Virus record (IMG/VR): IMGVR_UViG_2506520037_000005
Coordinates: 1-39,263 of that record
Direction: 5' to 3' (one strand)
DNA length: 39,263 nt
Source of the DNA: a virus
Taxonomy: Duplodnaviria; Heunggongvirae; Uroviricota; Caudoviricetes
A program made the translations under genes and the position numbers. The first letter of the stretch is position 1; every line of letters starts with the position of its first letter. The notes under the pieces are model-generated. The model worked only from the letters and a program-made list of their open reading frames with translations. It was not told the DNA's origin and did not search any database. Below are positions 2,621-38,130 of this stretch, one piece after another.

Positions 2621-2732
2621 AACTGAAGTTGCCCTGAAAATGAAATTTTTTTGCACAACCGCAGAACTTTTCCGCAGGGCATCAGTCTTAATTAGTGCCA
2701 CTGCTTTTCTTTGATGTCCCCATTTTGTGGAG

Positions 2733-2776
2733 CCCATCAACCCCGCCATTTCGGTTCAAGGTTGATGGGTTTTTTG
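2733..2776 (+). terminator. Rho-independent terminator downstream of ybjL
   Basis: Perfect 10-bp inverted repeat cccatcaacc / ggttgatggg followed by TTTTTT. Confidence 0.6.
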
Positions 2777-2855
2777 TTGCCTGAAATTTAAGATGTTTAA
2801 AATCATGATGTTAGAAGCACTGTTTTTTAACGATGGCGACAAAATGGCGGCAGCG

Positions 2856-10711: not shown

Positions 10712-10766
10712 GATCAATCCCCTGAATAAAAACCGGGGATGATGCCAGTTAGCCGTTATCTCTGCA

Positions 10767-10792
10767 TTTTCATAAACGTTGGTTTGGGAGAA
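10767..10792. other. Invertase crossover site, right (26-bp imperfect palindrome, gix/hix-like)
   Basis: TTTTCATAAACG TT GGTTTGGGAGAA; its right 14 bp are identical to the inverted copy inside gene H; lies 55 bp from the invertase start. Confidence 0.75.
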
Positions 10793-11122
10793 GCCAGATA
10801 TGTCATTCAGCGAGGAGCTAATGCCAATGGTGCATGGATACGCTGGTCAGATGGTGCAATAGAAGTATTTGGAACCGGTGGATCTAATGATAATGGACTG
10901 GCTAAAGTTGTTTACCCAATTGCACTGCCTAAACTTTCACGTTTTATCAGTATCGCGGAAAGAATAAGAACGGATTACGAGAGCACACCTAATAATGTTC
11001 ACGTTTCAATGATCGTGGATGATCAGGTAACAAATACCGGCTTTTATGCCCGCTGCCAGATGTACGACGGCAGACCATCATCAAATGCTTTTTCCTGGAG
11101 GGTTTATTGTGCGCCTGTTTAA
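10781..11122 (+). CDS. Promoterless alternative tail-fibre C-terminal segment (Sv'), expressed only after inversion
   Basis: The plus-strand ORF reads GLGE... in the same frame and from the same shared 14-bp core as the H gene; inversion would fuse the H constant part to this 113-codon segment. Confidence 0.6.
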   Translation, partial: GLGEARYVIQRGANANGAWIRWSDGAIEVFGTGGSNDNGLAKVVYPIALPKLSRFISIAERIRTDYESTPNNVHVSMIVDDQVTNTGFYARCQMYDGRPSSNAFSWRVYCAPV

Positions 11123-11141
11123 TCCAGTTACTTTGTAGTGG

Positions 11142-12398
<1,257 letters not shown>

Positions 12399-12535
12399 TG
12401 AAGTAATCCCCGGTCTTCATGACGTGACCGGGGCTATTGAATTACCGGAGGACAACTGGTTTTTTACTATGACAGAAATTCCTCAGGGCATGGAGCTAAC
12501 AATTAATGAGAAAGGCGAACCAATACTAATTGAGG

Positions 12536-13141
12536 TTAATCAGTCTCAGGGAATACAGGCCAAATAATATCAGGCGCGGTGCTGGTATCTGTTGCCGTCA
12601 CCGCGTCAGTGTAATCCAGCACAGCGTTAAGCCGGGTTGTTTCTGCCTGCGTCAGTTTCCGCCCGGCCTGTAATTTCAGCTGAATCAGACTAATGGAAGC
12701 CATTGCTGCATCAATCAGTGACTGACGCTGTGCTTCTGCCGCTTCTACTGCGGCACCGTGTTGTGCCTCAGTATCCGTCACCCATTTCTCACCATCCCAT
12801 TTATCGTATGGCGTTAATGGGGCGATAGTGGTTGTATTATCAGGGTAATTACCCGGAGCTGTGATTTCTTTTGATTCTCCTGTTGCGGTGCTAAAGACGA
12901 TTTCACCGCGATGGTCTGGCACATATTCCCATGAGTTAAAATCTGCAGAACGGCAGATTGTATAACCAGCTTTGTATGCGCCTGGAGCATCTAAACAGGA
13001 ACATGCCGGAATGCCGACACCAACGGCAAGATATTCAGTCGATATGGAAATATATTCCCGTGTTTCACCATCATAATTATAGACAGTAATATTCCCCGCC
13101 TTCGTGGCAATAAACTCGCTATTTAATACAGTGCTATCCAT
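12536..13141 (-). CDS. G: Tail fibre assembly protein (gpG/Tfa)
   Basis: 201-aa ORF immediately downstream of the tail fibre gene with 1-bp overlap. Confidence 0.8.
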   Translation of the reverse strand: MDSTVLNSEFIATKAGNITVYNYDGETREYISISTEYLAVGVGIPACSCLDAPGAYKAGYTICRSADFNSWEYVPDHRGEIVFSTATGESKEITAPGNYPDNTTTIAPLTPYDKWDGEKWVTDTEAQHGAAVEAAEAQRQSLIDAAMASISLIQLKLQAGRKLTQAETTRLNAVLDYTDAVTATDTSTAPDIIWPVFPETD

Positions 13142-14655
13142 TATGCAGCCCTCACAATGTAGTTAAATGCGATGTTGCGTGGACGGACACCGAAATAAGA
13201 AGTAACACCATTCATTGTCAAATTTCCAGAGCCAAAAGCGGTAAAACCAGAACCAGCATTAACTGCCGAATCCGCGTTTCTGACAAAGTTTTTGGGAGGT
13301 GAACCGGAGACACCAGCCGAAATATCATCAGCATTACCGCCATTGCCGTGGTGGTTAGTTATCTTTGTTTCCGCCTGCGCCGTCAACAAACCTCGTCCAG
13401 AGTCAACCCCGCGCCCGTCATCCCAGCCGCGAATAAACTCACCACGTAAATCAGGCAATTTATTTGCCGGATAAGCCTTTGCCAGTTCCGGGTATTCTTC
13501 AGCAGAAAAAGCCGCGCCGTTGCATTTCAGCCAGCCTGTTGGCGGAGTGGCGGAAGGCCATGGAACAGGGACACCAACGGGTAATGCAGAGCCTTCTCCC
13601 AAACCAAGGTATGCGAGAAGACCAGCTACATCCTTTCCACTCAAATTGGTAAGCGTATTGTCCAGCGGTTGTTTACCTGCCAGCGCATTAAGCATTGTCG
13701 TGGCAAAGTTCGGATCATTCCCCAGTGCCGCCGCCAGTTCGTTCAGTGTATCCAGTGCCGCAGGTGCAGAACCCACCATTGCTGCAATCGCTGATTTCAC
13801 AAAAGCTGTAGTGGCAATCTGTGTATTGTTGACCGACTGTGCCGCAGTAGGTGCTGTTGGCGTTCCGGTGAGTGCCGGACTCGACAGCGGTGCTTTTAGT
13901 GCCAGCGCATTGTTAATGGTGGTACTGAATTTCGGGTCATTGTTAATGGCTGCGGCAATTTCTTTCAGTGTGTCCAGCGTGGCTGGCGCACCGTTAATCA
14001 GAGCAGTAATAGCGGCCTGAACAAACTCAGTGGTCGCAATCCGCGTGGTGTTATTTCCTGCTGCAGGCGTCGGCGCTTTTGGTTCTCCGGTAAATGTCGG
14101 ATTATGTTTCTGCGCATACTGGGTATGAGGATCTTGTGCGGCAATGTGGTTTCTCATCTGGTCATCCACATACAGCTTTAATTCCAGGACTTCATCATCC
14201 ACGTATTTACGGGTTGCCAGCACTACAGCAGGGTCGATTTTCAGGGTGATATTGTCCGTACTGCTGGTAATCAGCACCATGCGCACGGTCTGGGTGCGCC
14301 CGCTGCCTTCAGCCAGTTGCGGCTTATAGCTTTCCGGGCAGTTGCCCACGGCAATCAATGCCCCGGACTCATCAAACAGGCCCACTTCACGTATCCACCA
14401 ACCGCCCTCGTTTTCAGGGATCACCTGTTCAGCAATAATCTGGCTGCTGTTCTGCGGGTCGATATAAAGCATATTCAGCGCAGCCCGGCGTTTCTCATTT
14501 ACCAGTGCCGTCTGCTTTGCGTCCGGCGTTGGCAATACTCCGCCGCCATCGCCCACCGCCATATGGGTAATTTTTAGCGGCACACCGAGCGCGGCGGCGC
14601 TGGCAAGTTTCGCCGCGCCAATATCCGTCAGCAGGGTATAAAATTTTGTGCTCAT
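13141..14655 (-). CDS. H: Tail fibre protein H (constant N-terminus plus invertible variable C-terminus)
   Basis: 504-aa ORF with repeated alanine-rich motifs (AAAINNDPKF / AAALGNDPNF) and a WLKCNGAAFS...YPELAKAY fibre tip; a crossover site lies within it. Confidence 0.85.
   Translation of the reverse strand: MSTKFYTLLTDIGAAKLASAAALGVPLKITHMAVGDGGGVLPTPDAKQTALVNEKRRAALNMLYIDPQNSSQIIAEQVIPENEGGWWIREVGLFDESGALIAVGNCPESYKPQLAEGSGRTQTVRMVLITSSTDNITLKIDPAVVLATRKYVDDEVLELKLYVDDQMRNHIAAQDPHTQYAQKHNPTFTGEPKAPTPAAGNNTTRIATTEFVQAAITALINGAPATLDTLKEIAAAINNDPKFSTTINNALALKAPLSSPALTGTPTAPTAAQSVNNTQIATTAFVKSAIAAMVGSAPAALDTLNELAAALGNDPNFATTMLNALAGKQPLDNTLTNLSGKDVAGLLAYLGLGEGSALPVGVPVPWPSATPPTGWLKCNGAAFSAEEYPELAKAYPANKLPDLRGEFIRGWDDGRGVDSGRGLLTAQAETKITNHHGNGGNADDISAGVSGSPPKNFVRNADSAVNAGSGFTAFGSGNLTMNGVTSYFGVRPRNIAFNYIVRAA
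13594..13619. other. Invertase crossover site, left (inside gene H)
   Basis: TTCTCCCAAACC AA GGTATGCGAGAA, an inverted copy of the site at 10767-10792 with a matching central dinucleotide. Confidence 0.75.
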
Positions 14656-17125: not shown

Positions 17126-17143
17126 TGTGACATTAACTACACA
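17126..17143. promoter_or_regulatory. Candidate Ogr-binding dyad (TGT-N12-ACA) upstream of V
   Basis: TTGTGACATTAACTACACAAAAA, centred only 55 bp from the V start codon, so assignment to PV is uncertain. Confidence 0.4.
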
Positions 17144-17147
17144 AAAA

Positions 17148-18071
17148 ATGACAACTAACACCAATACCCCAGAAGCAGCTGAGCAAGATAATATTGTCCC
17201 CATGGATGCAATGAATGATCCCATCAATCCCCCACCTACAAAGAAGGAGAGGGATGAATACAAAAAAAAACAGCAAGAAAGAATTGGCAAATACGTCGTT
17301 GGTGGAACAGATTTGGGTGGAAACACCATAAGTAAAATTTATTCACGTGGGGATGAATATGTCATTTATGAAGTAGCCAATCTTCCGCCTCATGAGTCTA
17401 TGCTCGTGTTCATAGACTCAATCATTGAGGAGGATGACAGTAAGATTGATAGATATCATGCTTCAAAAGAGCACTTTGATGAGTTTATTTCACATTGCTA
17501 CAAATACAACTGCTCTTCTATTTATAAAAAAAGAGCAGCAACAGTTATGTCAGCAACAATACTTGGAAAAAATGATATAAACAAAAATAACTTCGCCGCA
17601 ATAAATAGAGACATTAAAAACGATTATGAAAACACAATGCTTGGAAGGAATTTATATCAATCAGGAGCCATAACTTTAGCATTGATATTCATCATCCTTG
17701 CATTGATAACATATTTGGCTAGAGATTCTAATTTCATAAAAGCTAATCACTTTATTCCAGTGGTGTTATACGCCGCTTCCTTTGCTTCCATCGGGGGGTT
17801 TATTTCTGTATCCCTAAAAATAAAAAGCCTCCATACAGACAGAGAACTAAAAAAGAAAACTTATTTCTTCTATGGTGCGGAGAGAATACTCCTTTCAATG
17901 ATGGCTGGCGTACTTGTATACTTTATGCTCAAGGGGAATATTATCTTCGGGTTTATGAATAATAGTAGTGACATCTCATTCTCCATTTATGTGATTTGTG
18001 CGCTTTCTGGATTCAGTGAAACATTGATACCGAATACATTGAGAAACCTTGAAACCAAATCCGAAATTTAA
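17148..18071 (+). CDS. Hypothetical membrane-anchored protein (soluble N-terminal region plus four predicted TM helices), opposite strand to the late genes
   Basis: AT-rich ORF inserted between V and S; own terminator downstream; possible -35/-10 (TTGATT/TATATT) upstream. Start is ambiguous between GTG 17127 and ATG 17148, and no Shine-Dalgarno is seen. Confidence 0.6.
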   Translation: MTTNTNTPEAAEQDNIVPMDAMNDPINPPPTKKERDEYKKKQQERIGKYVVGGTDLGGNTISKIYSRGDEYVIYEVANLPPHESMLVFIDSIIEEDDSKIDRYHASKEHFDEFISHCYKYNCSSIYKKRAATVMSATILGKNDINKNNFAAINRDIKNDYENTMLGRNLYQSGAITLALIFIILALITYLARDSNFIKANHFIPVVLYAASFASIGGFISVSLKIKSLHTDRELKKKTYFFYGAERILLSMMAGVLVYFMLKGNIIFGFMNNSSDISFSIYVICALSGFSETLIPNTLRNLETKSEI

Positions 18072-24020: not shown

Positions 24021-24076
24021 CAACCACACAAACCGCAGGCGGGGAAAGCCTTCATTCAAGGCTGTAGGTTTGTGCC

Positions 24077-25843
24077 ATGAACACCACACTGACACCCGCA
24101 GATCTCGATCCCCGTCGGCAGGCCATGCTGCTGTACTTTCAGGGATACCGCGTAGCCCGCATTGCTGAAATGCTGGGCGAGAAAGTTGCAACCGTTCACA
24201 GCTGGAAAAAACGCGACAAGTGGGGTGACTATGGGCCGCTGGATCAGATGCAGCTCACCACCGCCGCACGCTACTGCCAGCTCATTATGAAGGAGCACAA
24301 AGAAGGGAAAGATTTCAAAGAGATTGACCTGCTGGCGCGCCAGTCGGAGCGCCATGCGCGGATCGGCAAGTTTAACAATGGCGGCAACGAAGCCGACTTA
24401 AACCCTAACGTCGCCAACCGCAACAAAGGCCCGCGCCGTCAGCCGGAAAAGAACGTTTTCACCGATGAACAGATTGAGAAGCTGGAAGAAATCTTCCATT
24501 CCTCCATGTTCAACTACCAGCGCCACTGGTGGGAAGCCGGAAAAACCAACCGCATCCGCAACCTGCTGAAGTCACGCCAGATCGGCGCGACCTTCTATTT
24601 TGCCCGTGAAGCCCTGATTGACGCCCTGCTAACCGGGCGTAACCAGATTTTCCTTTCCGCCAGCAAGGCACAGGCCCACGTCTTTAAGCAGTACATCATC
24701 GACTTCGCCAAAGAAGTGGAGGTGGAGCTGAAAGGCGATCCGATGGTGCTTCCTAACGGGGCCACGCTGTACTTCCTCGGCACCAATGCCCGCACGGCCC
24801 AGAGTTACCACGGCAACCTGTATCTGGATGAATATTTCTGGATACCGAAATTCCAGGAGCTGCGCAAAGTGGCTTCCGGTATGGCTATTCACAAGAAATG
24901 GCGACAGACCTATTTTTCCACGCCATCCAGTCTGACACACAGTGCTTATCCGTTCTGGTCCGGTGCGCTGTTCAACCGTGGGCGCAACAGAGCCGATAAG
25001 GTGGACATCGACCTGTCCCACAGCAATCTGGCCCCCGGCCTGCTGTGCGCAGACGGGCAATACCGCCAGATAGTCACCGTGGAAGATGCGGTGCGCGGCG
25101 GCTGTAACCTGTTCGACCTTGACCAGTTGCGCATGGAGTACAGCCCTGACGAATACCAGAACTTGCTGATGTGCGAGTTCGTGGACGATCTCGCGTCCGT
25201 GTTCCCGCTCAGCGAATTGCAGGCGTGCATGGTGGACAGCTGGGAAGTCTGGACCGACTTTCATGCACTGGCCCTGCGCCCGTTTGGCTGGCGCGAAGTG
25301 TGGATCGGTTATGACCCGGCAAAAGGTACGCAGAACGGCGACAGCGCCGGATGCGTGGTGGTGGCACCGCCAGCCGTGCCAGGCGGTAAGTTCCGCATTC
25401 TTGAGCGTCACCAGTGGCGCGGAATGGACTTTCGCGCCCAGGCTGACGCCATCAAAAAACTGACCGAACAGTACAACGTGACCTATATCGGCATCGACTC
25501 AACCGGCGTTGGTCACGGGGTTTACGAGAACGTGAAAGCGTTTTTTCCTGCCGTCCGGGAGTTTGTCTACAACCCCAACGTTAAAAACGCCCTGGTACTC
25601 AAGGCCTACGACATTATCAGCCACCGCCGTCTTGAGTTTGACGCCGGGCACACCGACATTGCGCAGTCATTCATGGCAATCCGTCGCGCCACCACCGCCA
25701 GCGGCAACCGCCCGACCTATGAAGCCAGCCGCAGCGAAGAAGCCAGCCATGCCGATCTGGCCTGGGCAACAATGCACGCACTGTTTAACGAACCACTGCA
25801 GGGCGAGTCCGCCAATACCAGCAATATTGTGGAGATTTTTTGA
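24077..25843 (+). CDS. P: Terminase ATPase (large) subunit P
   Basis: 588-aa ORF divergent from O; P2 gpP size and position. Confidence 0.9.
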   Translation: MNTTLTPADLDPRRQAMLLYFQGYRVARIAEMLGEKVATVHSWKKRDKWGDYGPLDQMQLTTAARYCQLIMKEHKEGKDFKEIDLLARQSERHARIGKFNNGGNEADLNPNVANRNKGPRRQPEKNVFTDEQIEKLEEIFHSSMFNYQRHWWEAGKTNRIRNLLKSRQIGATFYFAREALIDALLTGRNQIFLSASKAQAHVFKQYIIDFAKEVEVELKGDPMVLPNGATLYFLGTNARTAQSYHGNLYLDEYFWIPKFQELRKVASGMAIHKKWRQTYFSTPSSLTHSAYPFWSGALFNRGRNRADKVDIDLSHSNLAPGLLCADGQYRQIVTVEDAVRGGCNLFDLDQLRMEYSPDEYQNLLMCEFVDDLASVFPLSELQACMVDSWEVWTDFHALALRPFGWREVWIGYDPAKGTQNGDSAGCVVVAPPAVPGGKFRILERHQWRGMDFRAQADAIKKLTEQYNVTYIGIDSTGVGHGVYENVKAFFPAVREFVYNPNVKNALVLKAYDIISHRRLEFDAGHTDIAQSFMAIRRATTASGNRPTYEASRSEEASHADLAWATMHALFNEPLQGESANTSNIVEIF

Positions 25844-26868
25844 TGGGAAAGAGTAAGAAGAACCGCGCTGCGGCGACGAAACAGATCCAGCATAAAAACC
25901 AGACTTCAGCCGAAGCATTCAGCTTCGGTGATCCCGTTCCTGTTCTGGACCGCCGCGAACTGCTGGACTATGTGGAATGCGTACAGATGGACCGTTGGTA
26001 TGAGCCACCAGTGAGTTTCGACGGCCTGGCGCGAACCTTCCGCGCCGCCGTACACCACAGCTCACCGATTGCAGTAAAGTGCAACATTCTGACCAGCACC
26101 TATATCCCTCACCCGTTGCTCAGCCAGCAGGCTTTTTCACGTTTTGTGCAGGACTATCTGGTATTTGGTAATGCCTACCTGGAGAAACGCACGAACCGCT
26201 TCGGTGAAGTTATCGCCCTTGAACCTGCCCTGGCAAAATATACCCGACGCGGATTAGACCTGGATACCTACTGGTTTGTGCAATACGGTATGGCAACCCA
26301 GCCGTATCAGTTCACGAAAGGCAGCATCTTTCATCTGATGGAACCGGATATTAATCAGGAGATCTACGGCCTGCCTGGCTATCTTTCTGCTATTCCATCC
26401 GCTCTGCTCAACGAGTCCGCCACGCTGTTCCGCCGGAAGTATTACATTAACGGCAGTCATGCAGGCTTCATCATGTACATGACCGATGCCGCGCAAAACC
26501 AGGAGGATGTGAACAACCTCCGCAACGCAATGAAAAGCGCCAAAGGACCGGGTAACTTCCGCAACCTGTTTATGTACTCGCCTAACGGCAAAAAGGATGG
26601 GCTTCAGATCATTCCTCTGTCAGAAGTCGCGGCGAAGGATGAGTTTCTGAATATCAAGAACGTGAGCCGGGACGACATGATGGCGGCGCACCGCGTACCG
26701 CCGCAAATGATGGGGATTATGCCTAGCAATGTCGGGGGGTTTGGGGATGTAGAGAAAGCTAGTAAGGTATTTGTGCGGAATGAGCTTTTACCTTTGCAAA
26801 AATTGATGCAAGCGCTTAATTGTTGGCTGGATGAAAATATAATTACATTTAATAAATATATTTTGTAG
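25840..26868 (+). CDS. Q: Portal protein Q
   Basis: 342-aa ORF overlapping the P stop by 4 bp; its last ~25 codons are AT-rich, suggesting a recombination joint with the downstream cargo. Confidence 0.9.
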   Translation: MMGKSKKNRAAATKQIQHKNQTSAEAFSFGDPVPVLDRRELLDYVECVQMDRWYEPPVSFDGLARTFRAAVHHSSPIAVKCNILTSTYIPHPLLSQQAFSRFVQDYLVFGNAYLEKRTNRFGEVIALEPALAKYTRRGLDLDTYWFVQYGMATQPYQFTKGSIFHLMEPDINQEIYGLPGYLSAIPSALLNESATLFRRKYYINGSHAGFIMYMTDAAQNQEDVNNLRNAMKSAKGPGNFRNLFMYSPNGKKDGLQIIPLSEVAAKDEFLNIKNVSRDDMMAAHRVPPQMMGIMPSNVGGFGDVEKASKVFVRNELLPLQKLMQALNCWLDENIITFNKYIL

Positions 26869-26884
26869 TTCCTGTTTATAATTA

Positions 26885-26904
26885 ACGCCTGCCTGAGCAG
26901 GCGT
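26885..26904. terminator. Bidirectional hairpin between convergent Q and the DUF262 gene
   Basis: Stem acgcctgc / gcaggcgt with a 4-nt loop; T-rich on the plus side. Confidence 0.55.
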
Positions 26905-26908
26905 TCTT

Positions 26909-28690
26909 TCATTTAAAACGTGTTGCAATATCTGCTGCTTCGATAACTGTTGCTTTTACGGTATTATCGCCAGCACGATAATAAATATCCCCATCATAAC
27001 TAGAATAAGATGCTAGAAGTGGAATTGTAATAACTATAACTCCATAACCATAAAAGTCATTATAGTCAATCAAACTCACCACTTGTGATTTAAGAGGCTC
27101 ACTCAAAGCAGATTTTTTCAACTCATCGCAAAAACGTCTATAATATTCTTCCATTGATATGCCGAGTTTAATAGCTTCTCTTTTAACACCAACAACACTT
27201 CTCTCACCAACTACATGTGCATCTATATCATCAAGCTCTTTTACTCTACTTGTATCACTTGGTTTATCTGTTACACCAAGCAATAACTTACCAACTACAC
27301 CGTTCTTGTTACCTTTACCGATGTTAGCAATAGCACAAATTGTGGAGAATATTTTCTCATGAATGCCATCATCAATAGTTCGCTCTCCGCCTAACATCAA
27401 CAAACCCTGTTTCAGTTCATAATTTGCAAGCTCTATTTCAGATCTTCGTAAAATATCCTCAATATCCACCGTATTGTGAGAATTATAGATATGACTGCTA
27501 TCGGCGCTATCAATAAAGTTATCTTTAATCAAGCCTATGATAGAATTAATATTCTTTCTTCTCTCTTCCCCACCAGTAGCAGATCTTTTAGTATCTAGTC
27601 GAGTGACTATATTATTAAGATTGTCTTTTACACCTTTATAATTATTAATCTTCTTATTTTCTTTAATGAGTAATTCATGAAAAGCAATAAATAACACAGC
27701 AAATATGGCTGGGAAAGCATTTGTAGTACGTTTAGTAAAGATTAAATCCCTGAGTTTAATTTCACCGTCACTATTACATACTTTTGTTATTTCCTGGATG
27801 CAGAATTTAAACTCTTCTGCAAATTTTCCTTCACCATAAACATTAATAGCAGAGCTAATACGACTATACTCTTCATCTTCATTATTATAAATCTGATCAA
27901 GCGCATCTTTGGAACGATCTATTAACTTACCTCCAACAATACAAGCTGCTATATCTGCAATGCATTGCTCATCCATACTGTCACGAAGGTCTGTTGAACG
28001 TAAGATCCCATGTTTTACCCAAAATACTTCTTCCGACTGAATTTGGTAACCATGTTTAGTTAGTGGCAAATCAATGCTAATAGACGGCATTTGCTCTAAA
28101 AGCAATATGTCGTCAGATACATCCCCCCTGATAGAACAGGCAATATCCCTAACCATATTTGAAAATTTATTTTGTATACCAGCCTGGCGCCTTTCTTGAT
28201 CACTAAGTCTATGCCCGTATGTATTAATTCTATCAAAAACATCATTTATTTCGTTCTCAGTCGCATTACGCATAATGGACATTGCAAGAGAATAATCCAA
28301 TAACTGAGTAACCTCACGCTGACTTAAAAGATTATCAGCTTTCACTGCAACAAACTTACCTTCATCCGCTCGATTTTTCGCTGTGGGAAAAGCGTCCAGA
28401 TTAAAACGTTTTCCATCAAGTGATTCATATCCTGTTTCGATGAAAGACATTATTGCATGTAATCTTTGTAGGCCATCAATTATTTCATATGTGCCAGGAT
28501 CATTTTCCCTTTCCGCGAGAAGAACTGCAGGAATTGGATATTTTTTTTGAATGGATTCAATTAATTTTTGTTTCTCTATTGCAGTCCAAACTAATTTTCG
28601 TTGATAACGTCTATTAACAAATATCTTACCTTCAGTAAACCATGAATAAATAGTTTGTATAGAAGTTGTTTGCGGTAATAGTTCAGCCAT
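26909..28690 (-). CDS. DUF262 (ParB-like nuclease superfamily) protein, 593 aa, candidate anti-phage defence protein
   Basis: N-terminal DUF262 signature motifs (NRRYQRKLVW; IIDGLQRL, a DGQQR variant); AT-rich codon usage; lies in the Q-to-A variable region. No recognisable HNH motif in the C-terminal half. Confidence 0.7.
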   Translation of the reverse strand: MAELLPQTTSIQTIYSWFTEGKIFVNRRYQRKLVWTAIEKQKLIESIQKKYPIPAVLLAERENDPGTYEIIDGLQRLHAIMSFIETGYESLDGKRFNLDAFPTAKNRADEGKFVAVKADNLLSQREVTQLLDYSLAMSIMRNATENEINDVFDRINTYGHRLSDQERRQAGIQNKFSNMVRDIACSIRGDVSDDILLLEQMPSISIDLPLTKHGYQIQSEEVFWVKHGILRSTDLRDSMDEQCIADIAACIVGGKLIDRSKDALDQIYNNEDEEYSRISSAINVYGEGKFAEEFKFCIQEITKVCNSDGEIKLRDLIFTKRTTNAFPAIFAVLFIAFHELLIKENKKINNYKGVKDNLNNIVTRLDTKRSATGGEERRKNINSIIGLIKDNFIDSADSSHIYNSHNTVDIEDILRRSEIELANYELKQGLLMLGGERTIDDGIHEKIFSTICAIANIGKGNKNGVVGKLLLGVTDKPSDTSRVKELDDIDAHVVGERSVVGVKREAIKLGISMEEYYRRFCDELKKSALSEPLKSQVVSLIDYNDFYGYGVIVITIPLLASYSSYDGDIYYRAGDNTVKATVIEAADIATRFK

Positions 28691-28824
28691 GAAACAAATT
28701 CCTTCTTCTGGATAGAATTTTATAATATAGAAACTGAAAAGGTTAAGTTACCATCAAAAATGATGATAGCAACAAAAAGATACCATTTTGTAATTTTTTG
28801 TTCAGATTTTCATATCAGAGCGCG

Positions 28825-28843
28825 CTCGTATCCCCGCCACGCC
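28825..28843 (-). other. Candidate cos cohesive-end core (GGCGTGGCGGGGATACGAG on the minus strand)
   Basis: Resembles the P2/186 19-nt cohesive end as I recall it (GGCG[A/T]GGCGGGGAAAGCA); that recollection is itself uncertain. Confidence 0.25.
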
Positions 28844-29222
28844 TGCCCGCTTTATGCAGTGGTTTTCATGCACATGCATGACATGAGCAAAAGCCCGCCA
28901 GTTCTGGCGGATCTGAGCAAAGACGATCCTCAATCGATCATGCGATTTCATGCAGCATAGTCATGCACTGTCAAGGAAGTGAAAATCCGTATCTGAATGG
29001 CCACTTGAAAAACGGATCATACGGGTTTACAAAGATGAATGTTCGCTGTGAACGGGAAGCGGAAGTTAACTTTCAGATAACATAATCCATATGCACGAGA
29101 ACCTCTAAAATAGAATGGGACACCTAAGTGGGGTACTTACAACGATTCTTTCCATATTCACAGTTAACACTCTGTTTGGCGTATTTTTATTCAAATAGCA
29201 AACACCAATAAAAGGAGTTTCC

Positions 29223-29558
29223 ATGAACAATATTCCCCCTATACCACAGTTAGGAATTTATGTCTCAAAAATCGATCCCACCCTACGTATCACTGTAACC
29301 GATGTTGATATTGTTGATGGTGAGGATGATTCTCCTGATGATGAATTGTTTTATTTAGTCCACTGGATCGAGGGGGAAGATGAAAGTGATATGACAGCAA
29401 TGGGATTTGAGCTAGACCCAGTAGAGTGGCAGGCTTTCGTTGAATCTGAGCAATTAGTGTTTGAGCGTGATCCGTACATGGATTCAATCCCCGAAAATTC
29501 AAACTTGGCAAAGATTCGGGATTTTCTCATGAAGACTAAACAGAATGATCATTCGTAA
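29223..29558 (+). CDS. Small, strongly acidic hypothetical protein (111 aa)
   Basis: Good Shine-Dalgarno (AAAAGGAG) 7 nt upstream of the ATG; Asp/Glu-rich (DGEDDSPDDE, EGEDESD); AT-rich. Confidence 0.6.
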   Translation: MNNIPPIPQLGIYVSKIDPTLRITVTDVDIVDGEDDSPDDELFYLVHWIEGEDESDMTAMGFELDPVEWQAFVESEQLVFERDPYMDSIPENSNLAKIRDFLMKTKQNDHS

Positions 29559-29750
29559 GTGTAAGCATCCATCAGGAAAATGGTTTTGTAAGTGAATCAT
29601 CAACTTTTAGAGAGTCTCAGACACTCCCACTTCTGCTTCTGACACAAAGCGGACGATCACTTATCAAAATAACCGCCCACCTTACGCCTTATTTCACTCA
29701 TTGCCCAAACTAGCCCCCATCAGAATGAATCCTCCTGGGGGCAACATTTC

Positions 29751-29984
29751 TTAATGCAGCCAGCTGTCGTCCTCCCACACCTTCTGCATAATTTTCATCA
29801 CTTGTTTTCTTTCTTCATCCAGTTGCAGTCCGGTTAGTTCCACACCGTTAGAGCTACCTTTGCGAATGCGAATTACCGTTTTGGGATACAGGGGGCGCAG
29901 ATTGCGGTAAAGCTCGGATTCAAGTGCGTCCAAGGTAGACTGGCTAATCTTCTGCTCTTTATCGATCATTATTTCAATGCGCAT
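29751..29984 (-). CDS. DinI-family protein
   Basis: MRIEIMIDKEQKISQSTLDALESEL...WEDDSW collinear with E. coli DinI as recalled; own SD (GAGGTGA). The longer ORF-track start is unlikely. Confidence 0.8.
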   Translation of the reverse strand: MRIEIMIDKEQKISQSTLDALESELYRNLRPLYPKTVIRIRKGSSNGVELTGLQLDEERKQVMKIMQKVWEDDSWLH

Positions 29985-29994
29985 AAAAGTCACC

Positions 29995-30183
29995 TCAGCT
30001 GATGACATCCATTGAGCGGTTGTATTCGTGGCTTCTGATTTTTGCCATGAGTTCATCAGTCAATTCAGAAACCCACTGCAGAGCCAGCCCCTTCTCTTCA
30101 TCACTACACTCACTAGCCGCTACAAGCTTAAGAAAAAAATCAATGCGCTGGAGCTTCAAAGACTCCAAAAAATAGTCCTGCAT
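29995..30183 (-). CDS. Small protein (62 aa), first gene of a LexA-controlled operon; possible Tum-like antirepressor
   Basis: ORF directly downstream of a consensus LexA box and upstream of the DinI-like gene. Confidence 0.5.
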   Translation of the reverse strand: MQDYFLESLKLQRIDFFLKLVAASECSDEEKGLALQWVSELTDELMAKIRSHEYNRSMDVIS

Positions 30184-30223
30184 CTTTCCTCCTATGACAC
30201 CAAAACAATACTGTATACATAAC

Positions 30224-30243
30224 CACTGTTTATATTTACAGTA
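30224..30243. promoter_or_regulatory. LexA (SOS) box overlapping a promoter
   Basis: cACTGTTTATATTTACAGTAt matches the CTGT-N8-ACAG consensus with an AT-rich spacer; sits upstream of the minus-strand small ORF. Confidence 0.7.
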
Positions 30244-30335
30244 TATAATAATCTTACTGATGTAAAACGTTTTTTTACGTTCATCGGCCTGATATGCCTG
30301 GTATTATTAAGAGCACGAATTGTTAACCCGCGTAA

Positions 30336-32750
30336 TTAATACAGGTTCCGCCACTTATCATCTTCCTTCAGACGCTGGTTCCGATAGAAGATACGCAGGC
30401 CTGCTCCTGACGGAATACTGCCGCCGCGAAGGAGCAAATCGACTTCTTTCTCGCTGCCATCAAATCCCCTGGACTTCAGTTCATAGACGAGCTGCTGTCG
30501 CTGATGGTCTGTAATTCGCTGTTTGTAGTCTTTACGCCGTTTCGGTTTCACCTGGCGTAACCTTGCAGCCAGTTCCCGGCGCTCTTTTTTGCTCATACTG
30601 TGCAGGTAATCGTGCAACTCCTTGTCATTCATACGGGTAATATCCGTTCTGGAGTCCCCATCAGCTGATTTGTCTTTCCCTTGTTGGTTCAAATTTTCAG
30701 CAAGGGGACAGTTATTGCCACGAGTCCAAGGGGCGCAAGCGCCCTGGTCGGCTACCGCCTCCTGAACGTCAACGGCCTTACGAACCATTTTCCACTTCAC
30801 TGCATGAGTGCAGATCTTGCCCTCTGAAATGGGTGACCAGATGCCATAAATACGAATACCGTGATCGCCATAGGCAGTCGGCTCTTCGTTAATTTCATAA
30901 GCTGTTCTGATAAGGTGATATTTGCGGGGAACCAGTACGCCGCCCTGCTTCATGATGTAGGTGGCAAAACAACCAGCATCAGCAGCAGCCAGGATGGCAT
31001 CAAGACGCGGATCATCCAGTACCGGCGCACCTGCTTTTTTGTCACCCTGTTGCCTTGCCGCCTGACCAGCCAGCAATCGCAGTTCACGGTAAGCCTGGCG
31101 CCCCGGAATACCAAAGAAGCGGAACTGCTGAACACGATGCAGAGACGCCCAGGCATTAACGTATTCGGCGTTATCACGCAGGGATTTACCCGTTTCCTTG
31201 CTGATCTCGCCAGCCAGACCACGCCCGTCAATGTTCTTACTGATGTATTTTGCGATGTAGCTTGTCGGCGTTCCTTTGCGTGGGTTTATCAGCTCAGACT
31301 TAAAGCGTGGGCCCGTGTTATTGCCCAGCTCCTCGCGGTCTTCACGGATGGCAAACTTACGCAACAATGCAGTAATGGCGCGGCGGTCTTTTTTGCGCAT
31401 GAAACACATGAGATGCCAGTGCACAGTACCGTCATGGTGCGGCTCAGCCACCCGTACGCCATACCAGCGCAACCCGGTTTTGTGCATCGCCTTACGAAAT
31501 GCAGCAAACATGCCGACCAGATAATCGCTGCTTTGTCTTACCGTCGCATTTGTCCAGGTCGGGTTGGGCCTGCCGTTATTGAGCGTGGAATGGAAACGTG
31601 ACGGACATGTGATGGTGTAGAAAACGGCGCAGTCACCGCGCATTTCCGCGATAAGCTCCAGACCTTTAACGCAGGCCATCATCTCATTGCGGCGATGTGC
31701 CGGGTTGCTGCTGCTGGCGTTTACCACATCTTCCATATCCAGCGTGTCTCCGTCTTCGTTCACCAGTTCATGAGAACGGAAAAACTCCAGCGACTTGCGG
31801 CGCTGCTCACGTTTATGCATCACGGCTTCATAGCTGACATAGGGAGATGCTTTTTTGCTGACCAGACAGACAGCACGCAACTGCTCTTCCCGCCATTCGC
31901 AACGCATCTTCCACAATTTTCGATACCACCAGTCGGCGCAAAGCATACGTGCCAGCGAACCCGGTATGAGTTCATAGGGCACAGGTTTGCGGCGGTTTCT
32001 TTTCCGACGAAGTTTCTCAAACGCAGGCGGGATAACATCCAGACGCAGGGTTTCCGCTGCCACCTTTTCCCATGTCTTGCGGATTTCTTCTGGCTTTACG
32101 TCATCGTTGGTATACAAATCACCACAAGCGGCCTCAAGACACATGCTCATATGCGCAGCTACCAGGGTGGACAGGCGTTTCACCTGATCCTGACTCATTT
32201 CAGGCAGGATCAGCAGGCCCTCCAGCCCTTGATGGCTTGCCATAAAACGGAAAGAAGTAGATAGCTGACTGTCGCGTACACAATCCAGTCGCTCCAGACA
32301 TGGCTTAATCGTCTCACGCAAATAGCGGGAATAAGCCTTTGGCCTGCCCAGGCTGCTGAAGTATTCGATACGTTGCATCAGCGGCTTGCTGATGTGGGTG
32401 GGCTGGGCGCTGACGTCCGCCAGAATGACCATGTCCGGGTTAAAACGCTGCTGCTCATGCGCCAGCTTTGCCCGACTAATGAGCTTATCCTGCTCCATTT
32501 CGCGCTGGACAGGATCACGGGATTCATTAAAGAAATAACGCTCCCAGACCTGTTCACTCAATTCCTCGCGGCGCAGCTGTTCCTGCTCGTTATCGGCAGC
32601 ATACAGAGTGATCAGGTTTGAAAGCGCAGAAACCGGCGCAACTTCCGCCGGGTCCAGATAAGGGTTTATGGCCTTTTTCGGGCCGTTCCATGAAAATGCT
32701 GCAGCGGCCTCGTTAAAGCCGCTAGAGTCGCTCATATCGGCATGACTCAT
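30336..32750 (-). CDS. A: Replication initiation protein A (rolling-circle nickase)
   Basis: 804-aa ORF in the P2 gpA position, recognised as P2 A-like. Confidence 0.85.
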
Positions 32751-35968: not shown

Positions 35969-36058
35969 GGTGCAACATTCCTTCTTTAATTCGGCTTGTG
36001 GCGAGCCGTTGTTTATCGTGATTAGTTGTGAAGGCTCCAAAAGAAGACTTCGAGGTCA

Positions 36059-36088
36059 ACTTTAAGATCGCTTTTGGAATCTGTCAAT
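36059..36088 (-). promoter_or_regulatory. Candidate early lytic promoter pR (-35 TTGACA, 17-bp spacer, -10 TAAAGT)
   Basis: Consensus -35 and acceptable -10 read on the minus strand upstream of apl, in the face-to-face position expected for a 186-type switch. Confidence 0.45.
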
Positions 36089-36114
36089 GCAATTTAGATT
36101 GTTTTGGAGGACTC

Positions 36115-36678
36115 TTGAATTTCAATAGCGGCGGAAAGAAAGTGATTGAACGTTTGGTTGAGGCGTATGGTTTCACCACTCGTCAGGCCCTTTGCGACCA
36201 CTTAGGGGTTTCAAAGAGCACAATGGCAACCCGCTACATGCGTGACATTTTTCCAGCAGATTGGGTACTTCAATGCGTTGTAGAAACTGGTACTTCAATT
36301 GATTGGCTGGTATCAGGGAAAGGTGAGTTAAAAACCACAGCAGTCAACTCTTTGGTAGACGTTGAAACTCGCGAACTAAAAAATGGAGAGGCTATTGCAC
36401 TTGGAACGCACAAGATTGATCCAGTCTTTCTTCTCAATGAAATAAAATCTGCATTAGCGATAAAAATTAACCAACATGTTTACATTTGTGACCGAGAAGA
36501 CACTACCATTTCTGATGGTCAATGGTTGGTGGATATAGAAGGAAAACTGAGTATTAAAAAAATCAATTTGATACCAGTCAAAAGAGCAATGGTATCTGGG
36601 GATGGTTTTTCATTTGAATGTGATATTAGTGATATAAAACCTATAGCTAAGGTTCATACCGTAATCAGTGAGGCTTAA
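36115..36678 (+). CDS. cI: CI-type immunity repressor (186 CI-like, N-terminal HTH)
   Basis: HTH segment (TTRQALCDHLGVSKSTMATRYMR) and about 190-aa size. Start is uncertain: the ORF opens at 36028, but an in-frame TTG at 36115 follows a GGAGG. Confidence 0.7.
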   Translation: MNFNSGGKKVIERLVEAYGFTTRQALCDHLGVSKSTMATRYMRDIFPADWVLQCVVETGTSIDWLVSGKGELKTTAVNSLVDVETRELKNGEAIALGTHKIDPVFLLNEIKSALAIKINQHVYICDREDTTISDGQWLVDIEGKLSIKKINLIPVKRAMVSGDGFSFECDISDIKPIAKVHTVISEA

Positions 36679-38130
36679 ATGGATATTGAGTGGAATTGGG
36701 ATCAAGATGACGAATTTCTTGGTGAAAAATTACCTGCAGATACATTGGACAGAAAAAAGTACGCAAAATATCTTTATGAAATCTGTGCTGCACGCGGTGC
36801 TAAATCCAATCTCGTAGTTAACATTAATGCGGAATGGGGGGCTGGAAAAACATATTTTACTAAACGCCTAGCCAAGACAATTTCCCACTACCATCCCACA
36901 ATATACATTGATGCTTGGAAAGAAGATTTTACTGAAGACCCATTGCTCACAGTATTTAGTGGAATTAAAGATCAATTATCTGGTCAATCTGATAGCTTTA
37001 CTGCTTTAATCAATTCAACAATTGAGAATGTCGGTCCTTTGCTAAAAACAGCGGCACCAGTTATTATTGATGGATTAATACAAAAGTTCACAGGGGTTGA
37101 CTCCTTTTCTAACCTAACTAAAGACTTATCATCTAAGCTAATAGAAATACACGCAGAAAAATCAACGAGAATAGAGACAGTAAGAAAAGGAATTAGTCGT
37201 TGGGTTGAATTCATTGGGCGAAAAGATGGAATAGATAAAGAGCTTCCATTATTTATAATAATTGATGAACTTGATAGATGTAGGCCCGATTTTTCCATTA
37301 GTCTTTTAGAAATCTCCAAGCATATTTTTAACATCCCTGGCGTAGTATTTATTATTGCCACTGACACCCAACAATTACAGCATTCAATAAAAGTTATATA
37401 TGGCACTAATTTTTCAGCAAGTCATTATCTAAGCAGGTTTTTTGACCGTCGATTCCTTCTCCCAACGCCAGAATACAAAGACTTACTATTAACAAAAACA
37501 GGTGAAAACATAATTTCGGAATTTAATTCTTTACGTGAAAAATTAATTCCATGCCCACAAGACATCACATCATTTGTTAAAAATTGTTCATCCATATTAT
37601 TATCCATAAAAATAAACATCAGAGACGCTGTAAAAATATACGAGAGGCTAATAGACATACTTATCACGTCAAATAAAACATTTGACCCCAATCTAATGTT
37701 GATATTATCTGCATTTAATTTCAAAGATCATGATGTATATGCAAAAATAAAATCAAAAGAAAAGCTAATTCCTAGTCCTCTCAACACAGAAATAGATTTA
37801 TCATTTGATTTATCTTATGAAACTACACAAGTCAAGTACTTCCAAGCTAATGGTGGTGTTTATAGTAATACGTATAAACAAAAAGAAATTTCAACAAATG
37901 TTCTATTTTACATAGAGACTGCTTGGAACACCTTAACGATAGCAAGAACCGCACCTGTTGGCACGCGACCTTACAATACTCCAGAACTTTGGATGGAAGG
38001 AGAGTTGTCTCAGGAGGAATCATTAGCGAACTTTCTCAAAATGGGATACGCCAAAAGCCGGTACAATGAAAGTGAACTAAAAATTCATCAATATTTCGAT
38101 TTAATTGAACTGAGCACAACATTTGATTGA
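36679..38130 (+). CDS. KAP-family P-loop NTPase (PifA-like), candidate phage-exclusion protein
   Basis: Walker A EWGAGKT and the KAP-type Walker B FIIIDELDRCRP; ATG follows the cI stop codon directly; AT-rich. Confidence 0.75.
   Translation: MDIEWNWDQDDEFLGEKLPADTLDRKKYAKYLYEICAARGAKSNLVVNINAEWGAGKTYFTKRLAKTISHYHPTIYIDAWKEDFTEDPLLTVFSGIKDQLSGQSDSFTALINSTIENVGPLLKTAAPVIIDGLIQKFTGVDSFSNLTKDLSSKLIEIHAEKSTRIETVRKGISRWVEFIGRKDGIDKELPLFIIIDELDRCRPDFSISLLEISKHIFNIPGVVFIIATDTQQLQHSIKVIYGTNFSASHYLSRFFDRRFLLPTPEYKDLLLTKTGENIISEFNSLREKLIPCPQDITSFVKNCSSILLSIKINIRDAVKIYERLIDILITSNKTFDPNLMLILSAFNFKDHDVYAKIKSKEKLIPSPLNTEIDLSFDLSYETTQVKYFQANGGVYSNTYKQKEISTNVLFYIETAWNTLTIARTAPVGTRPYNTPELWMEGELSQEESLANFLKMGYAKSRYNESELKIHQYFDLIELSTTFD

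What the first reader, a model, noticed from the sequence alone, without database searches (positions are those of the whole stretch)
26909..28690. Single-gene DUF262 protein in the variable region between portal gene Q and replication gene A
P2-like phages carry variable anti-phage cargo (old and tin in P2 itself) between cos and gene A. Here that region holds one AT-rich 593-aa ORF with clear N-terminal DUF262/ParB-like motifs (RRYQRKLVW, DGLQR) but no HNH/DUF1524 motif that I can see in its C-terminal ~350 aa. DUF262 domains occur in GmrSD-type IV restriction enzymes, BrxU and SspE. A DUF262 fused to an unrecognised C-terminal domain, alone in a defence hotspot, may be a divergent or undescribed defence protein.
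Basis: partly seen in the sequence, partly recalled or inferred. Interest (0 to 1): 0.75.

Follow-up and report, generated by a model that had tools for sequence, protein, structure and literature searches.

The report
DUF262–Schlafen anti-phage gene beside cos
The gene is real and is almost certainly a one-gene anti-phage defence carried by a P2-like prophage of E. coli W, but its "unknown" C-terminal half is a Schlafen-type RNase domain, and a 60%-identical relative found in the same prophage hotspot of strain UC4224 appears to be the protein already shown in 2025-26 to protect E. coli from phages.

Summary
The ORF is as described: 26909-28690, minus strand, 593 aa, 34.7% GC, with RRYQRKLVW and DGLQR motifs and no HNH/DUF1524 domain.

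The C-terminal domain is not unknown. It is a Schlafen/AlbA_2 nuclease domain with an invariant E420-x4-E425-x-K427 triad. Evidence: 32 of 34 family members hit PF04326, and the top 15 PDB fold matches of a pLDDT-91 model are all AlbA_2/Schlafen proteins. Residues 1-383 match the Menshen sensor NsnA (ParB-DUF262 plus a DNA-binding domain).

This DUF262-Schlafen architecture is published. EcoSlfn7 from E. coli UC4224 gave broad defence, strongest against T7. The UC4224 homologue is 60% identical and sits in the same prophage slot. The exact window protein (WP_000818977) was catalogued, untested, in 2022.

Most likely mechanism (inferred): an NTP-dependent DUF262 sensor switches on a tRNA-cleaving Schlafen effector.

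One correction: the gene lies between cos and portal gene Q, not between A and cos where P2's tin and old sit.

Verdict: a new, untested member of a known kind, of modest interest.

The parts
26909..28690 (-). CDS of the 593-aa DUF262-ParBDB-Schlafen protein (WP_000818977.1), stop codon included
   Evidence: ORF list. RefSeq CDS in E. coli W. Full-length PHROG 26759 match. dN/dS 0.037 against the 89%-identical Pluralibacter orthologue.
28175..28690 (-). Residues 1-172: ParB-DUF262 (GmrSD_N) NTPase-type sensor domain, carrying the QRxxxW (Q30-W35), DGxQR (D72-R76) and FxxxN (F152-N156) motifs
   Evidence: Pfam PF03235 E 1.6e-22. The motif residues are invariant in 34 sequences. Motif definitions come from PMC12065111. 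Fold hits to BrxU and to ParB/Noc/KorB.
28463..28477 (-). DGLQR motif (residues 72-76), the predicted nucleotide-binding centre
   Evidence: its role is taken from the literature.
27506..28174 (-). Residues 173-395: mostly helical middle domain, equivalent to the NsnA C-terminal 'ParBDB' DNA-binding domain
   Evidence: The PADLOC NsnA profile matches residues 7-383 (profile positions 49-370 of 385) at E 8e-31. Helical in the AF2 model. Domain description in PMC12065111.
26912..27505 (-). Residues 396-593: Schlafen/AlbA_2 nuclease domain (the effector)
   Evidence: PF04326 scores 19.8 bits in the full protein and 24.8 bits as an isolated domain, against a cutoff of 25.3. 32 of 34 relatives hit it at E<=1e-3. 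AF2 model pLDDT 91.3. The top 15 Foldseek PDB hits are all AlbA_2/Schlafen proteins.
27410..27433 (-). ELANYELK (residues 420-427): the Ex4ExK catalytic motif of Schlafen RNases
   Evidence: E420, E425 and K427 are invariant. Motif definition in PMC13056530. The triad is shown structurally in CbCash.
28717..28746 (-). Candidate sigma-70 promoter TTAACC-18-TAAAAT inside the cassette-specific upstream region, followed by a GAAGAAGGAA ribosome-binding site
   Evidence: Consensus scan and sequence. This is weak evidence: promoter-like sites are not enriched over shuffles in this AT-rich stretch.
26884..26905 (.). GC-rich hairpin between the convergent stops of Q and the defence gene; a likely shared terminator
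   Evidence: P2 has an analogous tQ terminator.
28825..28843 (-). 19-nt cos cohesive-end equivalent, GGCGTGGCGGGGATACGAG
   Evidence: 13/13 match to 186 cos and 20/22 to P2's right-end flank plus cos. Alignment with the P2 and 186 junctions and four relatives.
28816..28969 (.). Conserved cos island separating the two variable cargo slots
   Evidence: Present at 88-99% identity in every relative whatever its cargo.
26870..28816 (.). Slot 1 cassette (Q stop to about 9 nt beyond cos), the replaceable unit that holds the gene with its own promoter and terminator
   Evidence: Homology breakpoints against the UC4224, fS25a (retron Ec67), Fels-2 and Yersinia MLG42 loci.

Best explanation
The gene encodes a self-contained, single-protein anti-phage defence of the DUF262-Schlafen class (pSlfn7 in Perez Taboada et al.). 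It is carried as swappable cargo next to the cos site of a Fels-2/P2-like prophage of E. coli W. The protein has three modules. Residues 1-172 are a ParB-type DUF262 NTPase domain. Residues 173-395 are a helical DNA-binding domain like the one in the Menshen sensor NsnA. Residues 396-593 are a Schlafen RNase domain with an E420/E425/K427 active site. Proposed mechanism: the N-terminal two-domain module acts as the infection sensor, probably through NTP-dependent recognition of phage DNA or a replication or injection intermediate. Its conformational or oligomeric change unlocks the Schlafen domain, which then cuts tRNAs in the anticodon arm or T-loop, stops translation, and limits phage yield. 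What is shown here: the domain identities, the conserved catalytic and NTP-binding residues, strong purifying selection, solitary and mobile genomic behaviour, and homology with the UC4224 protein. What is shown in the literature: defence by the UC4224 DUF262-Schlafen fusion, tRNase activity of two other prokaryotic Schlafens, and DUF262 NTPase sensing in GmrSD, BrxU and SspE. What is inferred: that this allele defends, that its substrate is tRNA, and how the sensor couples to the effector.
For: Domains: Pfam GmrSD_N at E 1.6e-22. PADLOC NsnA at E 8e-31 over residues 7-383. PF04326 is hit in 32 of 34 relatives, and the UC4224 allele scores 30.9 bits, above the 25.3 cutoff. The C-terminal AF2 model has pLDDT 91.3. 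Its top 15 PDB matches are DIP2311 (E 1.6e-4, probability 1.0) and SLFN11/14/12/5.

Catalytic and NTP motifs are invariant in 34 sequences spanning Enterobacterales to cyanobacteria.

Selection: dN/dS is 0.037.

Stand-alone behaviour: the same protein sits beside different neighbours in UMNK88 and GCM74. It has no conserved partner in Achromobacter, a cyanobacterium, Paraburkholderia or Pluralibacter.

Hotspot: the same slot holds retron Ec67 or other cargo in relatives.

Validated relative: the UC4224 homologue is 60% identical end to end and lies in the same slot. The DUF262-Slfn fusion of UC4224 reduced T7 plating about 538-fold and acted on a broad range of phages.

Mechanistic precedents: RorSlfn5 is a tRNase. 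CbCash has an E-D-K triad with Mg2+ on tRNA loops. DUF262 NTPase sensing activates a fused nuclease in SspE and GmrSD.
Against: This allele has never been tested. It appears only as 'DUF262' in the 2022 hotspot table. It is only 50-53% identical to the tested allele in the Schlafen domain. Its own PF04326 score is below Pfam's threshold. The paper picked two systems per architecture and only two of the seven tested defended, so some family members show no phenotype on a standard panel. No mechanism was shown for the DUF262 fusion itself: tRNA cleavage and the trigger were established for a different architecture. The accession of EcoSlfn7 is not in the text I could read, so equating it with WP_028985442.1 is an inference. 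Foldseek TM-scores to eukaryotic Schlafens are modest, 0.27-0.36.
Confidence: 0.72

Rival explanations
1. It is a GmrSD/BrxU-type type IV restriction enzyme, as its RefSeq name suggests. DUF262 would recognise modified phage DNA and a cryptic C-terminal DNase would cut it.
For: RefSeq calls it 'GmrSD restriction endonuclease domain-containing protein'. The best full-length Foldseek hit is BrxU at E 5.9e-4. The DUF262 motifs are intact.
Against: No DUF1524/HNH family is found at E<=1. The C-terminal fold matches only AlbA_2/Schlafen proteins. The profile search against PDB sequences finds no GmrSD, BrxU or SspE. PADLOC's best match is NsnA, not a GmrSD-family model. The tested relative is most active on T7 and T3, which to my knowledge do not carry hypermodified cytosines.
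Confidence: 0.04
2. The Schlafen/AlbA_2 domain is a nucleic-acid-binding module rather than a nuclease. The protein would then act without RNA cleavage, for example as a ParB-like DNA clamp that blocks phage DNA replication or packaging, or as a regulator.
For: Some sources label PF04326 'putative DNA-binding domain'. Several mammalian Schlafens lack catalytic residues. The closest solved structure, DIP2311, has no assigned activity. The protein contains two putative DNA-binding modules.
Against: E420, E425 and K427 are invariant across 34 diverse sequences. That is the pattern of an active site, and it is identical to the triads that abolish function when mutated in RorSlfn5 and CbCash.
Confidence: 0.1
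3. It is an orphan Menshen-type sensor (NsnA) or a PD-T4-2-type component that needs partner proteins encoded elsewhere, and it is inert on its own.
For: The strongest PADLOC matches are NsnA (E 8e-31) and PD-T4-2_A (E 2.4e-18).
Against: No NsnB-like ABC ATPase or NsnC gene is adjacent. The neighbours are portal Q and cos. There is no conserved partner in five unrelated genomic contexts. The protein carries its own effector domain. The paper describes the UC4224 system as a DUF262-Slfn fusion among pSlfn genes cloned with their native promoters and does not mention any partner gene.
Confidence: 0.03
4. The allele is a functional defence or exclusion gene, but it is aimed mainly at competing P2-like phages, P4-like satellites or other mobile elements rather than at lytic coliphages. 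Alternatively, its diverged Schlafen domain cuts a different RNA, such as rRNA or mRNA.
For: Alleles occur in both the P2 and P4 hotspots. The Schlafen domain is the fastest-evolving part, with dN 0.119 against 0.033 for DUF262, and falls below the Pfam threshold in this clade. CbCash also cut 16S rRNA in vitro.
Against: There is no direct evidence. The nearest tested relative acts on a broad range of lytic phages.
Confidence: 0.1

Closest known systems
EcoSlfn7, the DUF262-Schlafen fusion of E. coli UC4224 (pSlfn7 class; Perez Taboada et al., bioRxiv 2025 and Nat Microbiol 2026)
   Same: Same three-module architecture and length (589 vs 593 aa). 60% identity and 77% similarity end to end. Identical DGLQR and ELANYELK motifs. 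Same slot between cos and portal Q of a Fels-2/P2-like prophage. Single gene with its own promoter.
   Different: A different allele: identity is 72% in DUF262, 58% in the middle domain and 53% in the Schlafen domain. The window clade scores below Pfam's Schlafen threshold. It is untested. That the UC4224 protein WP_028985442.1 is EcoSlfn7 is my inference.
RorSlfn5 and CbCash (characterised prokaryotic Schlafen tRNases)
   Same: Schlafen nuclease domain with an E-x4-(E/D)-x-K triad. Sensor-effector fusion logic. tRNA cleavage is the established output.
   Different: Their sensors are unrelated: an Ig-like domain that senses a T5 tail assembly chaperone, and a Csx15 cA4-binding domain. In pSlfn5 the Schlafen domain is N-terminal and is the more conserved part. 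Here it is C-terminal and is the less conserved part.
GmrSD / BrxU / SspE (DUF262-DUF1524 enzymes)
   Same: N-terminal ParB-DUF262 NTPase domain with a DGxQR motif, followed by a helical DNA-binding domain. A single polypeptide that couples a sensor to a nuclease.
   Different: The effector is a Schlafen RNase, not an HNH/DUF1524 DNase. There is no evidence that DNA modification is required.
Menshen NsnA (of NsnABC)
   Same: [quoted passage not shown]
   Different: There is no NsnB ATPase or NsnC effector. Here an RNase is fused directly to the sensor, so the ATPase transducer step is missing.
P2 old and tin, retron Ec67 and other P2 Q-A hotspot cargo (Rousset et al. 2022)
   Same: AT-rich, swappable defence cargo next to cos in P2-like prophages. 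The exact protein is listed in their Table S5.
   Different: Unrelated proteins. P2's old and tin lie on the A side of cos, whereas this gene, retron Ec67 in fS25a and the Fels-2 565-aa ORF lie on the Q side.

Membership tests
DUF262-Schlafen fusions (pSlfn7) | Schlafen/AlbA_2 nuclease domain (PF04326 fold) | tested here: met
   This allele's own Pfam score is sub-threshold: 19.8 bits, or 24.8 as an isolated domain, against a cutoff of 25.3. However, 32 of 34 aligned relatives hit PF04326, and the pLDDT-91 model's top 15 PDB matches are all AlbA_2/Schlafen proteins.
DUF262-Schlafen fusions (pSlfn7) | Catalytic Ex4(E/D)xK motif | tested here: met
   ELANYELK at residues 420-427. E420, E425 and K427 are invariant in the family.
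DUF262-Schlafen fusions (pSlfn7) | DUF262 (PF03235) fused in the same polypeptide | tested here: met
   PF03235 at E 1.6e-22 over residues 16-170.
DUF262-Schlafen fusions (pSlfn7) | Homology to the experimentally validated member | tested here: met
   60% identity over 592 aa to the only homologue found in the UC4224 genome. The accession of EcoSlfn7 could not be confirmed.
DUF262-Schlafen fusions (pSlfn7) | Confers phage resistance; the nuclease is triggered by infection | not testable with these tools
   Needs plaque assays and RNA analysis.
GmrSD / BrxU / SspE type IV-like enzymes | N-terminal DUF262 NTPase domain with DGxQR | tested here: met
GmrSD / BrxU / SspE type IV-like enzymes | C-terminal DUF1524 His-Me/HNH nuclease domain | tested here: not met
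   No such Pfam hit at E<=1. The C-terminal fold is Schlafen. No sequence match to solved GmrSD-family structures.
Menshen (NsnABC) | NsnA-like ParB-DUF262 + ParBDB protein | tested here: met
   PADLOC NsnA at E 8e-31, residues 7-383.
Menshen (NsnABC) | Adjacent NsnB (ABC ATPase + DUF3696) and NsnC effector genes | tested here: not met
   The neighbours are portal Q on one side and cos plus a DUF8087 ORF on the other. There is no conserved partner elsewhere.
PD-T4-2 | Full-length match to PD-T4-2_A, plus its partner gene | tested here: inconclusive
   The match covers only the DUF262 region (residues 14-184, E 2.4e-18). I did not verify the composition of PD-T4-2. No second cassette gene is present.
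P2-like Q-A (cos-proximal) defence hotspot cargo | Lies between gpQ and gpA next to cos, with different cargo in related prophages | tested here: met
   Hotspot definition from PMC9122126. The accession is listed in its Table S5.

The most novel reading that the evidence does not exclude
The most novel reading not excluded is that this family is a one-chain, 'short-circuited' Menshen. A ParB-type NTPase/DNA-clamp sensor (DUF262 + ParBDB) would directly gate a Schlafen tRNase, which would link ParB-like nucleotide switching to translation shutdown. Unusually, the sensor would be the conserved part and the effector the fast-evolving part. Allele-specific phage range or RNA target, or resistance to phage inhibitors, would then be set by the Schlafen domain. 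The window/Pluralibacter clade, which falls below the Pfam threshold, would be a functionally distinct lineage.
Probability: 0.3. Interest if true: 0.5.

Novelty: new member of a known kind. Interest (0 to 1): 0.3.

Why it matters
E. coli W and its derivatives (KO11FL and others) are widely used laboratory and industrial strains, so an unrecognised Schlafen-type defence in their prophage could shape their phage sensitivity.

More generally, RefSeq names this protein as a GmrSD restriction-endonuclease domain protein. That name points to the wrong mechanism, DNA restriction rather than RNA cleavage. Pfam-threshold annotation misses the Schlafen domain in this clade.

The DUF262-Schlafen class has a demonstrated phenotype but no demonstrated trigger or coupling mechanism. 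A second, 60%-diverged natural allele from the same hotspot would be a useful comparison for mapping specificity.

None of this is a surprise to the field after the 2025-26 Schlafen papers.

Tried and rejected
1. A profile search of the family alignment against all PDB sequences gave no meaningful hit, so fold comparison was needed.
I rebuilt the alignment.
4. Searching the 186 cos 19-mer that I recalled from memory, with up to 3 mismatches, found nothing. The real P2 and 186 ends had to be fetched and aligned.
5. Crude regexes for HNH-like spacing gave two hits in lysine/asparagine-rich helices. I dismissed them because no HNH family or fold is supported.
6. The supplements of both Schlafen paper versions and of the 2026 P2/P4 paper are not held. 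I could not confirm the EcoSlfn7 accession, nor whether WP_000818977 is among the 5,930 catalogued pSlfns.
7. A literature search for the accession found nothing in main texts.
8. The weak Pfam hits TRP_N and BBH37 in the middle domain were ignored as far below threshold.
9. The promoter scan is not informative by count: 9 sites found against 11.9 expected.
Full report
**1. Observation**

The ORF exists exactly as reported: 26909-28690 on the minus strand, ATG start, 593 aa. Its GC content is 34.7% against 50.2% for the window, and the low-GC trough covers 27000-29000. RRYQR begins at residue 27 and DGLQR at residue 72. Pfam gives GmrSD_N/DUF262 over residues 16-170 (E 1.6e-22) and no DUF1524/HNH family even at E<=1.

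The flanking genes are terminase P (24077-25843), portal Q (25840-26868) and replication gene A (30336-32750). Around the gene (26500-30400) the window is 100% identical to a complete Fels-2/P2-like prophage of E. coli W, running from int to ogr and integrated next to ybjL. Over its full length it matches the W record NC_017635 at 99.97% or better, apart from one inverted tail-fibre segment. The protein is WP_000818977.1, annotated 'GmrSD restriction endonuclease domain-containing protein'.

**2. What the C-terminal half is**

The same Pfam scan gave a weak Schlafen AlbA_2 (PF04326) match at residues 445-580 (19.8 bits, cutoff 25.3). Just upstream is ELANYELK (residues 420-427), an exact Ex4ExK. 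That is the catalytic signature of Schlafen RNases as defined in PMC13056530.

A database search found more than 2,000 relatives. Full-length ~589-aa proteins at about 60% identity occur in Enterobacterales, Xanthomonas, Paraburkholderia, Achromobacter and cyanobacteria, and most carry precomputed PF03235 + PF04326 calls. In a 34-sequence alignment, 32 members hit PF04326 at E<=1e-3. The UC4224 and P4-satellite alleles pass the curated cutoff at 30.9 and 31.9 bits. The UC4224 alignment starts at residue 423, inside the motif. The window allele and its 89% Pluralibacter sister are the two that fall just short.

E418, E420, E425 and K427 are invariant, as are D475, D487, R504 and E505.

An AlphaFold2 model of residues 395-593 is confident (pLDDT 91.3, pTM 0.86). 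Its top 15 Foldseek matches in the PDB are all AlbA_2/Schlafen proteins: C. diphtheriae DIP2311 (E 1.6e-4, probability 1.00, TM 0.47), pig SLFN11-N, and human SLFN14, SLFN12, SLFN11 and SLFN5. No HNH fold appears. So the 'unrecognised' domain is a Schlafen nuclease domain.

**3. The N-terminal two-thirds**

The best PADLOC match is the Menshen sensor NsnA (E 8e-31), covering residues 7-383 and nearly the whole profile. A 2025 study describes NsnA as ParB-DUF262 plus a helical 'ParBDB' DNA-binding domain that GmrSD and SspE also have. It lists three DUF262 motifs: QRxxxW, DGxQR and FxxxN. All three are present and invariant here: Q30-R31...W35, D72-R76 and F152...N156.

The full-length model (pLDDT 80, pTM 0.70) hits BrxU (E 5.9e-4) and the ParB/Noc/KorB CTPases for this part. 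A family profile finds no solved structure at the sequence level.

**4. Single-gene, mobile and under selection**

The identical protein occurs in 18 of 5,426 complete E. coli genomes, always next to the portal gene. The other side of cos differs between them: a DUF8087 ORF in W, two hypothetical genes in UMNK88, and a DUF6694 lipoprotein in GCM74.

Distant relatives in Achromobacter, a cyanobacterium and Paraburkholderia have no conserved neighbour. The same is true of the 89% orthologue in Pluralibacter, which sits between chromosomal housekeeping genes.

Against that orthologue dN/dS is 0.037 with synonymous sites near saturation. All three domains are constrained. The Schlafen domain changes fastest, with dN 0.119 against 0.033 for DUF262. 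Identity to the other family members is 71% for DUF262, 61% for the middle domain and 50% for the Schlafen domain. This is the reverse of pSlfn5, where the nuclease is the conserved part.

**5. Anatomy of the hotspot**

Aligning window 26500-30400 with six related loci shows a ~150-bp island (28816-28969) conserved in all of them. It is flanked by two independently variable slots. The island contains GGCGTGGCGGGGATACGAG (28843->28825, minus strand). This string matches 186 cos at 13/13, and with its flank it matches P2's right end plus cos at 20/22. In a multiple alignment it lines up with the P2 and 186 cohesive ends. The relatives diverge from one another about 9 nt beyond it.

- **Slot 1 (Q stop to cos)** holds the DUF262-Schlafen gene here. 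It holds retron Ec67 in strain fS25a, a 565-aa ORF in Fels-2, and nothing in Yersinia phage MLG42.
- **Slot 2 (cos to dinI/A)** holds the 111-aa DUF8087 ORF here.

In P2 itself Q ends 187 nt from cosL with no cargo there, and tin and old lie on the A side. It is the first gene inward from the left cohesive end.

The cassette (about 26870-28816) carries a candidate promoter (28746-28717), a ribosome-binding site, and a hairpin terminator shared with Q (26884-26905).

**6. What is already known**

Rousset et al. 2022 defined the gpQ-gpA cos-proximal hotspot. Their Table S5 lists WP_000818977 as 'DUF262', and their P4 table lists the 62%-identical satellite allele WP_063081156 as 'DUF262/AlbA_2'. 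Neither appears in their table of tested systems.

Perez Taboada et al. (bioRxiv July 2025; Nat Microbiol 2026) found that DUF262 fusions make up 1.8% of 5,930 prokaryotic Schlafens. They showed that the DUF262-Slfn fusion of E. coli UC4224 (EcoSlfn7), expressed from its native promoter, reduced plating of a broad range of phages. The effect was strongest on T7 (about 538-fold) and T3.

The UC4224 genome contains one homologue of the window gene, WP_028985442.1. It is 589 aa, 60% identical end to end, and sits in the same slot between cos and Q of a related prophage. I infer that this is EcoSlfn7. The accession is not in the text available to me.

That paper established the mechanism (a tail-chaperone trigger and tRNA anticodon-arm cleavage) only for the unrelated pSlfn5 architecture. 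A second study showed that CbCash uses an E-D-K triad with Mg2+ to cut tRNA T-loops and anticodon loops. DUF262 domains of GmrSD, BrxU and SspE are NTPases, and their substrate sensing activates a fused nuclease.

**7. Interpretation**

The best-supported explanation is a single-protein defence in which a ParB-DUF262/ParBDB sensor gates a Schlafen tRNase. Membership in the DUF262-Schlafen class is well supported. The defence activity of this particular allele, its RNA target and its trigger are inferred.

It is not a GmrSD-family enzyme, because it has no DUF1524. It is not Menshen, because there is no NsnB or NsnC. Only two of the seven Schlafen systems tested in the paper showed a phenotype, so activity of this 60%-diverged allele on standard phages is likely but not certain.

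**8. Verdict**

This is a new, untested member of a known and recently validated kind, and interest is modest (0.3).

The points that add something are:
- the corrected domain assignment for a protein mislabelled as a GmrSD restriction-endonuclease domain protein in RefSeq;
- the finding that this clade escapes Pfam's Schlafen threshold;
- the effector-faster-than-sensor evolutionary pattern;
- the two-slot structure of the hotspot on either side of cos.

Noticed in passing
window 36679-38130 (+): A low-GC (0.32-0.36) 483-aa KAP-family P-loop NTPase. Matches: Pfam PF07693 at E 8e-36, PADLOC candidate PDC-S20 at E 4e-82, weaker hits to PifA and QatA, and PHROG 8614 of unknown function. It starts immediately after the CI repressor gene (36028-36678) and lies before the integrase. 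It is probably a second defence cargo co-transcribed with the repressor.
   Followed up: partly
window 17127-18071 (+); RefSeq CDS WP_001350048.1 at about 17148-18071: A low-GC (0.34-0.39) ~310-aa ORF between tail-completion gene S and baseplate gene V. To my recollection (not checked here) this is the position of P2 orf30. It has no hit in Pfam, PADLOC or PHROGs, so it is an orphan cargo gene of unknown function.
   Followed up: partly
window 10776-13607, with recombinase 10145-10717 (-): A ~2.8-kb tail-fibre segment is inverted in the window relative to the E. coli W record NC_017635, with ~15-18-bp overlaps at both junctions. It lies next to a Hin/Gin-type serine recombinase, so it looks like a phase-variable host-range switch. 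It also contains an IS3-family transposase, so the prophage tail-fibre region may be disrupted.
   Followed up: partly
window 28816-28969 and 28969-29741: The Q-A hotspot is really two independently variable slots separated by a conserved ~150-bp cos island. Cargo on the Q side begins about 9 nt after the cohesive end. The A-side slot here holds a 111-aa DUF8087 ORF (29223-29558, PHROG 17127, unknown function). The hotspot papers I read treat the region as a single hotspot.
   Followed up: yes
window 12201-12323 (-) and 2700-2778 (+): Two Rfam hits. The isrC Hfq-binding sRNA (150 bits) lies inside the IS3/invertible tail-fibre region. RybB (105 bits) lies in the chromosomal flank just outside the ogr end of the prophage.
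   Followed up: no
records NZ_CP026085.1 and NZ_CM135829.1: Two assemblies labelled 'E. coli DH5alpha' carry this W-type prophage region at 100% identity. To my knowledge a K-12 derivative would not be expected to carry it, so the strains may be mislabelled or contaminated.
   Followed up: no
L005 (NZ_CP066836.1) 6001-7767; L016 6001-7782: The same gene family moves between very different settings. One is the P4-satellite psu-int hotspot (62% allele, 9 complete E. coli genomes). Another is a bare chromosomal site between a nitroreductase gene and an MscS channel gene in Pluralibacter gergoviae (89% allele).
   Followed up: partly
window 24037-24049 (+): A 13-nt exact match to the P2 cos core (AGGCGGGGAAAGC) lies 28 nt upstream of the terminase P start codon. 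It is probably chance (E about 0.09).
   Followed up: no
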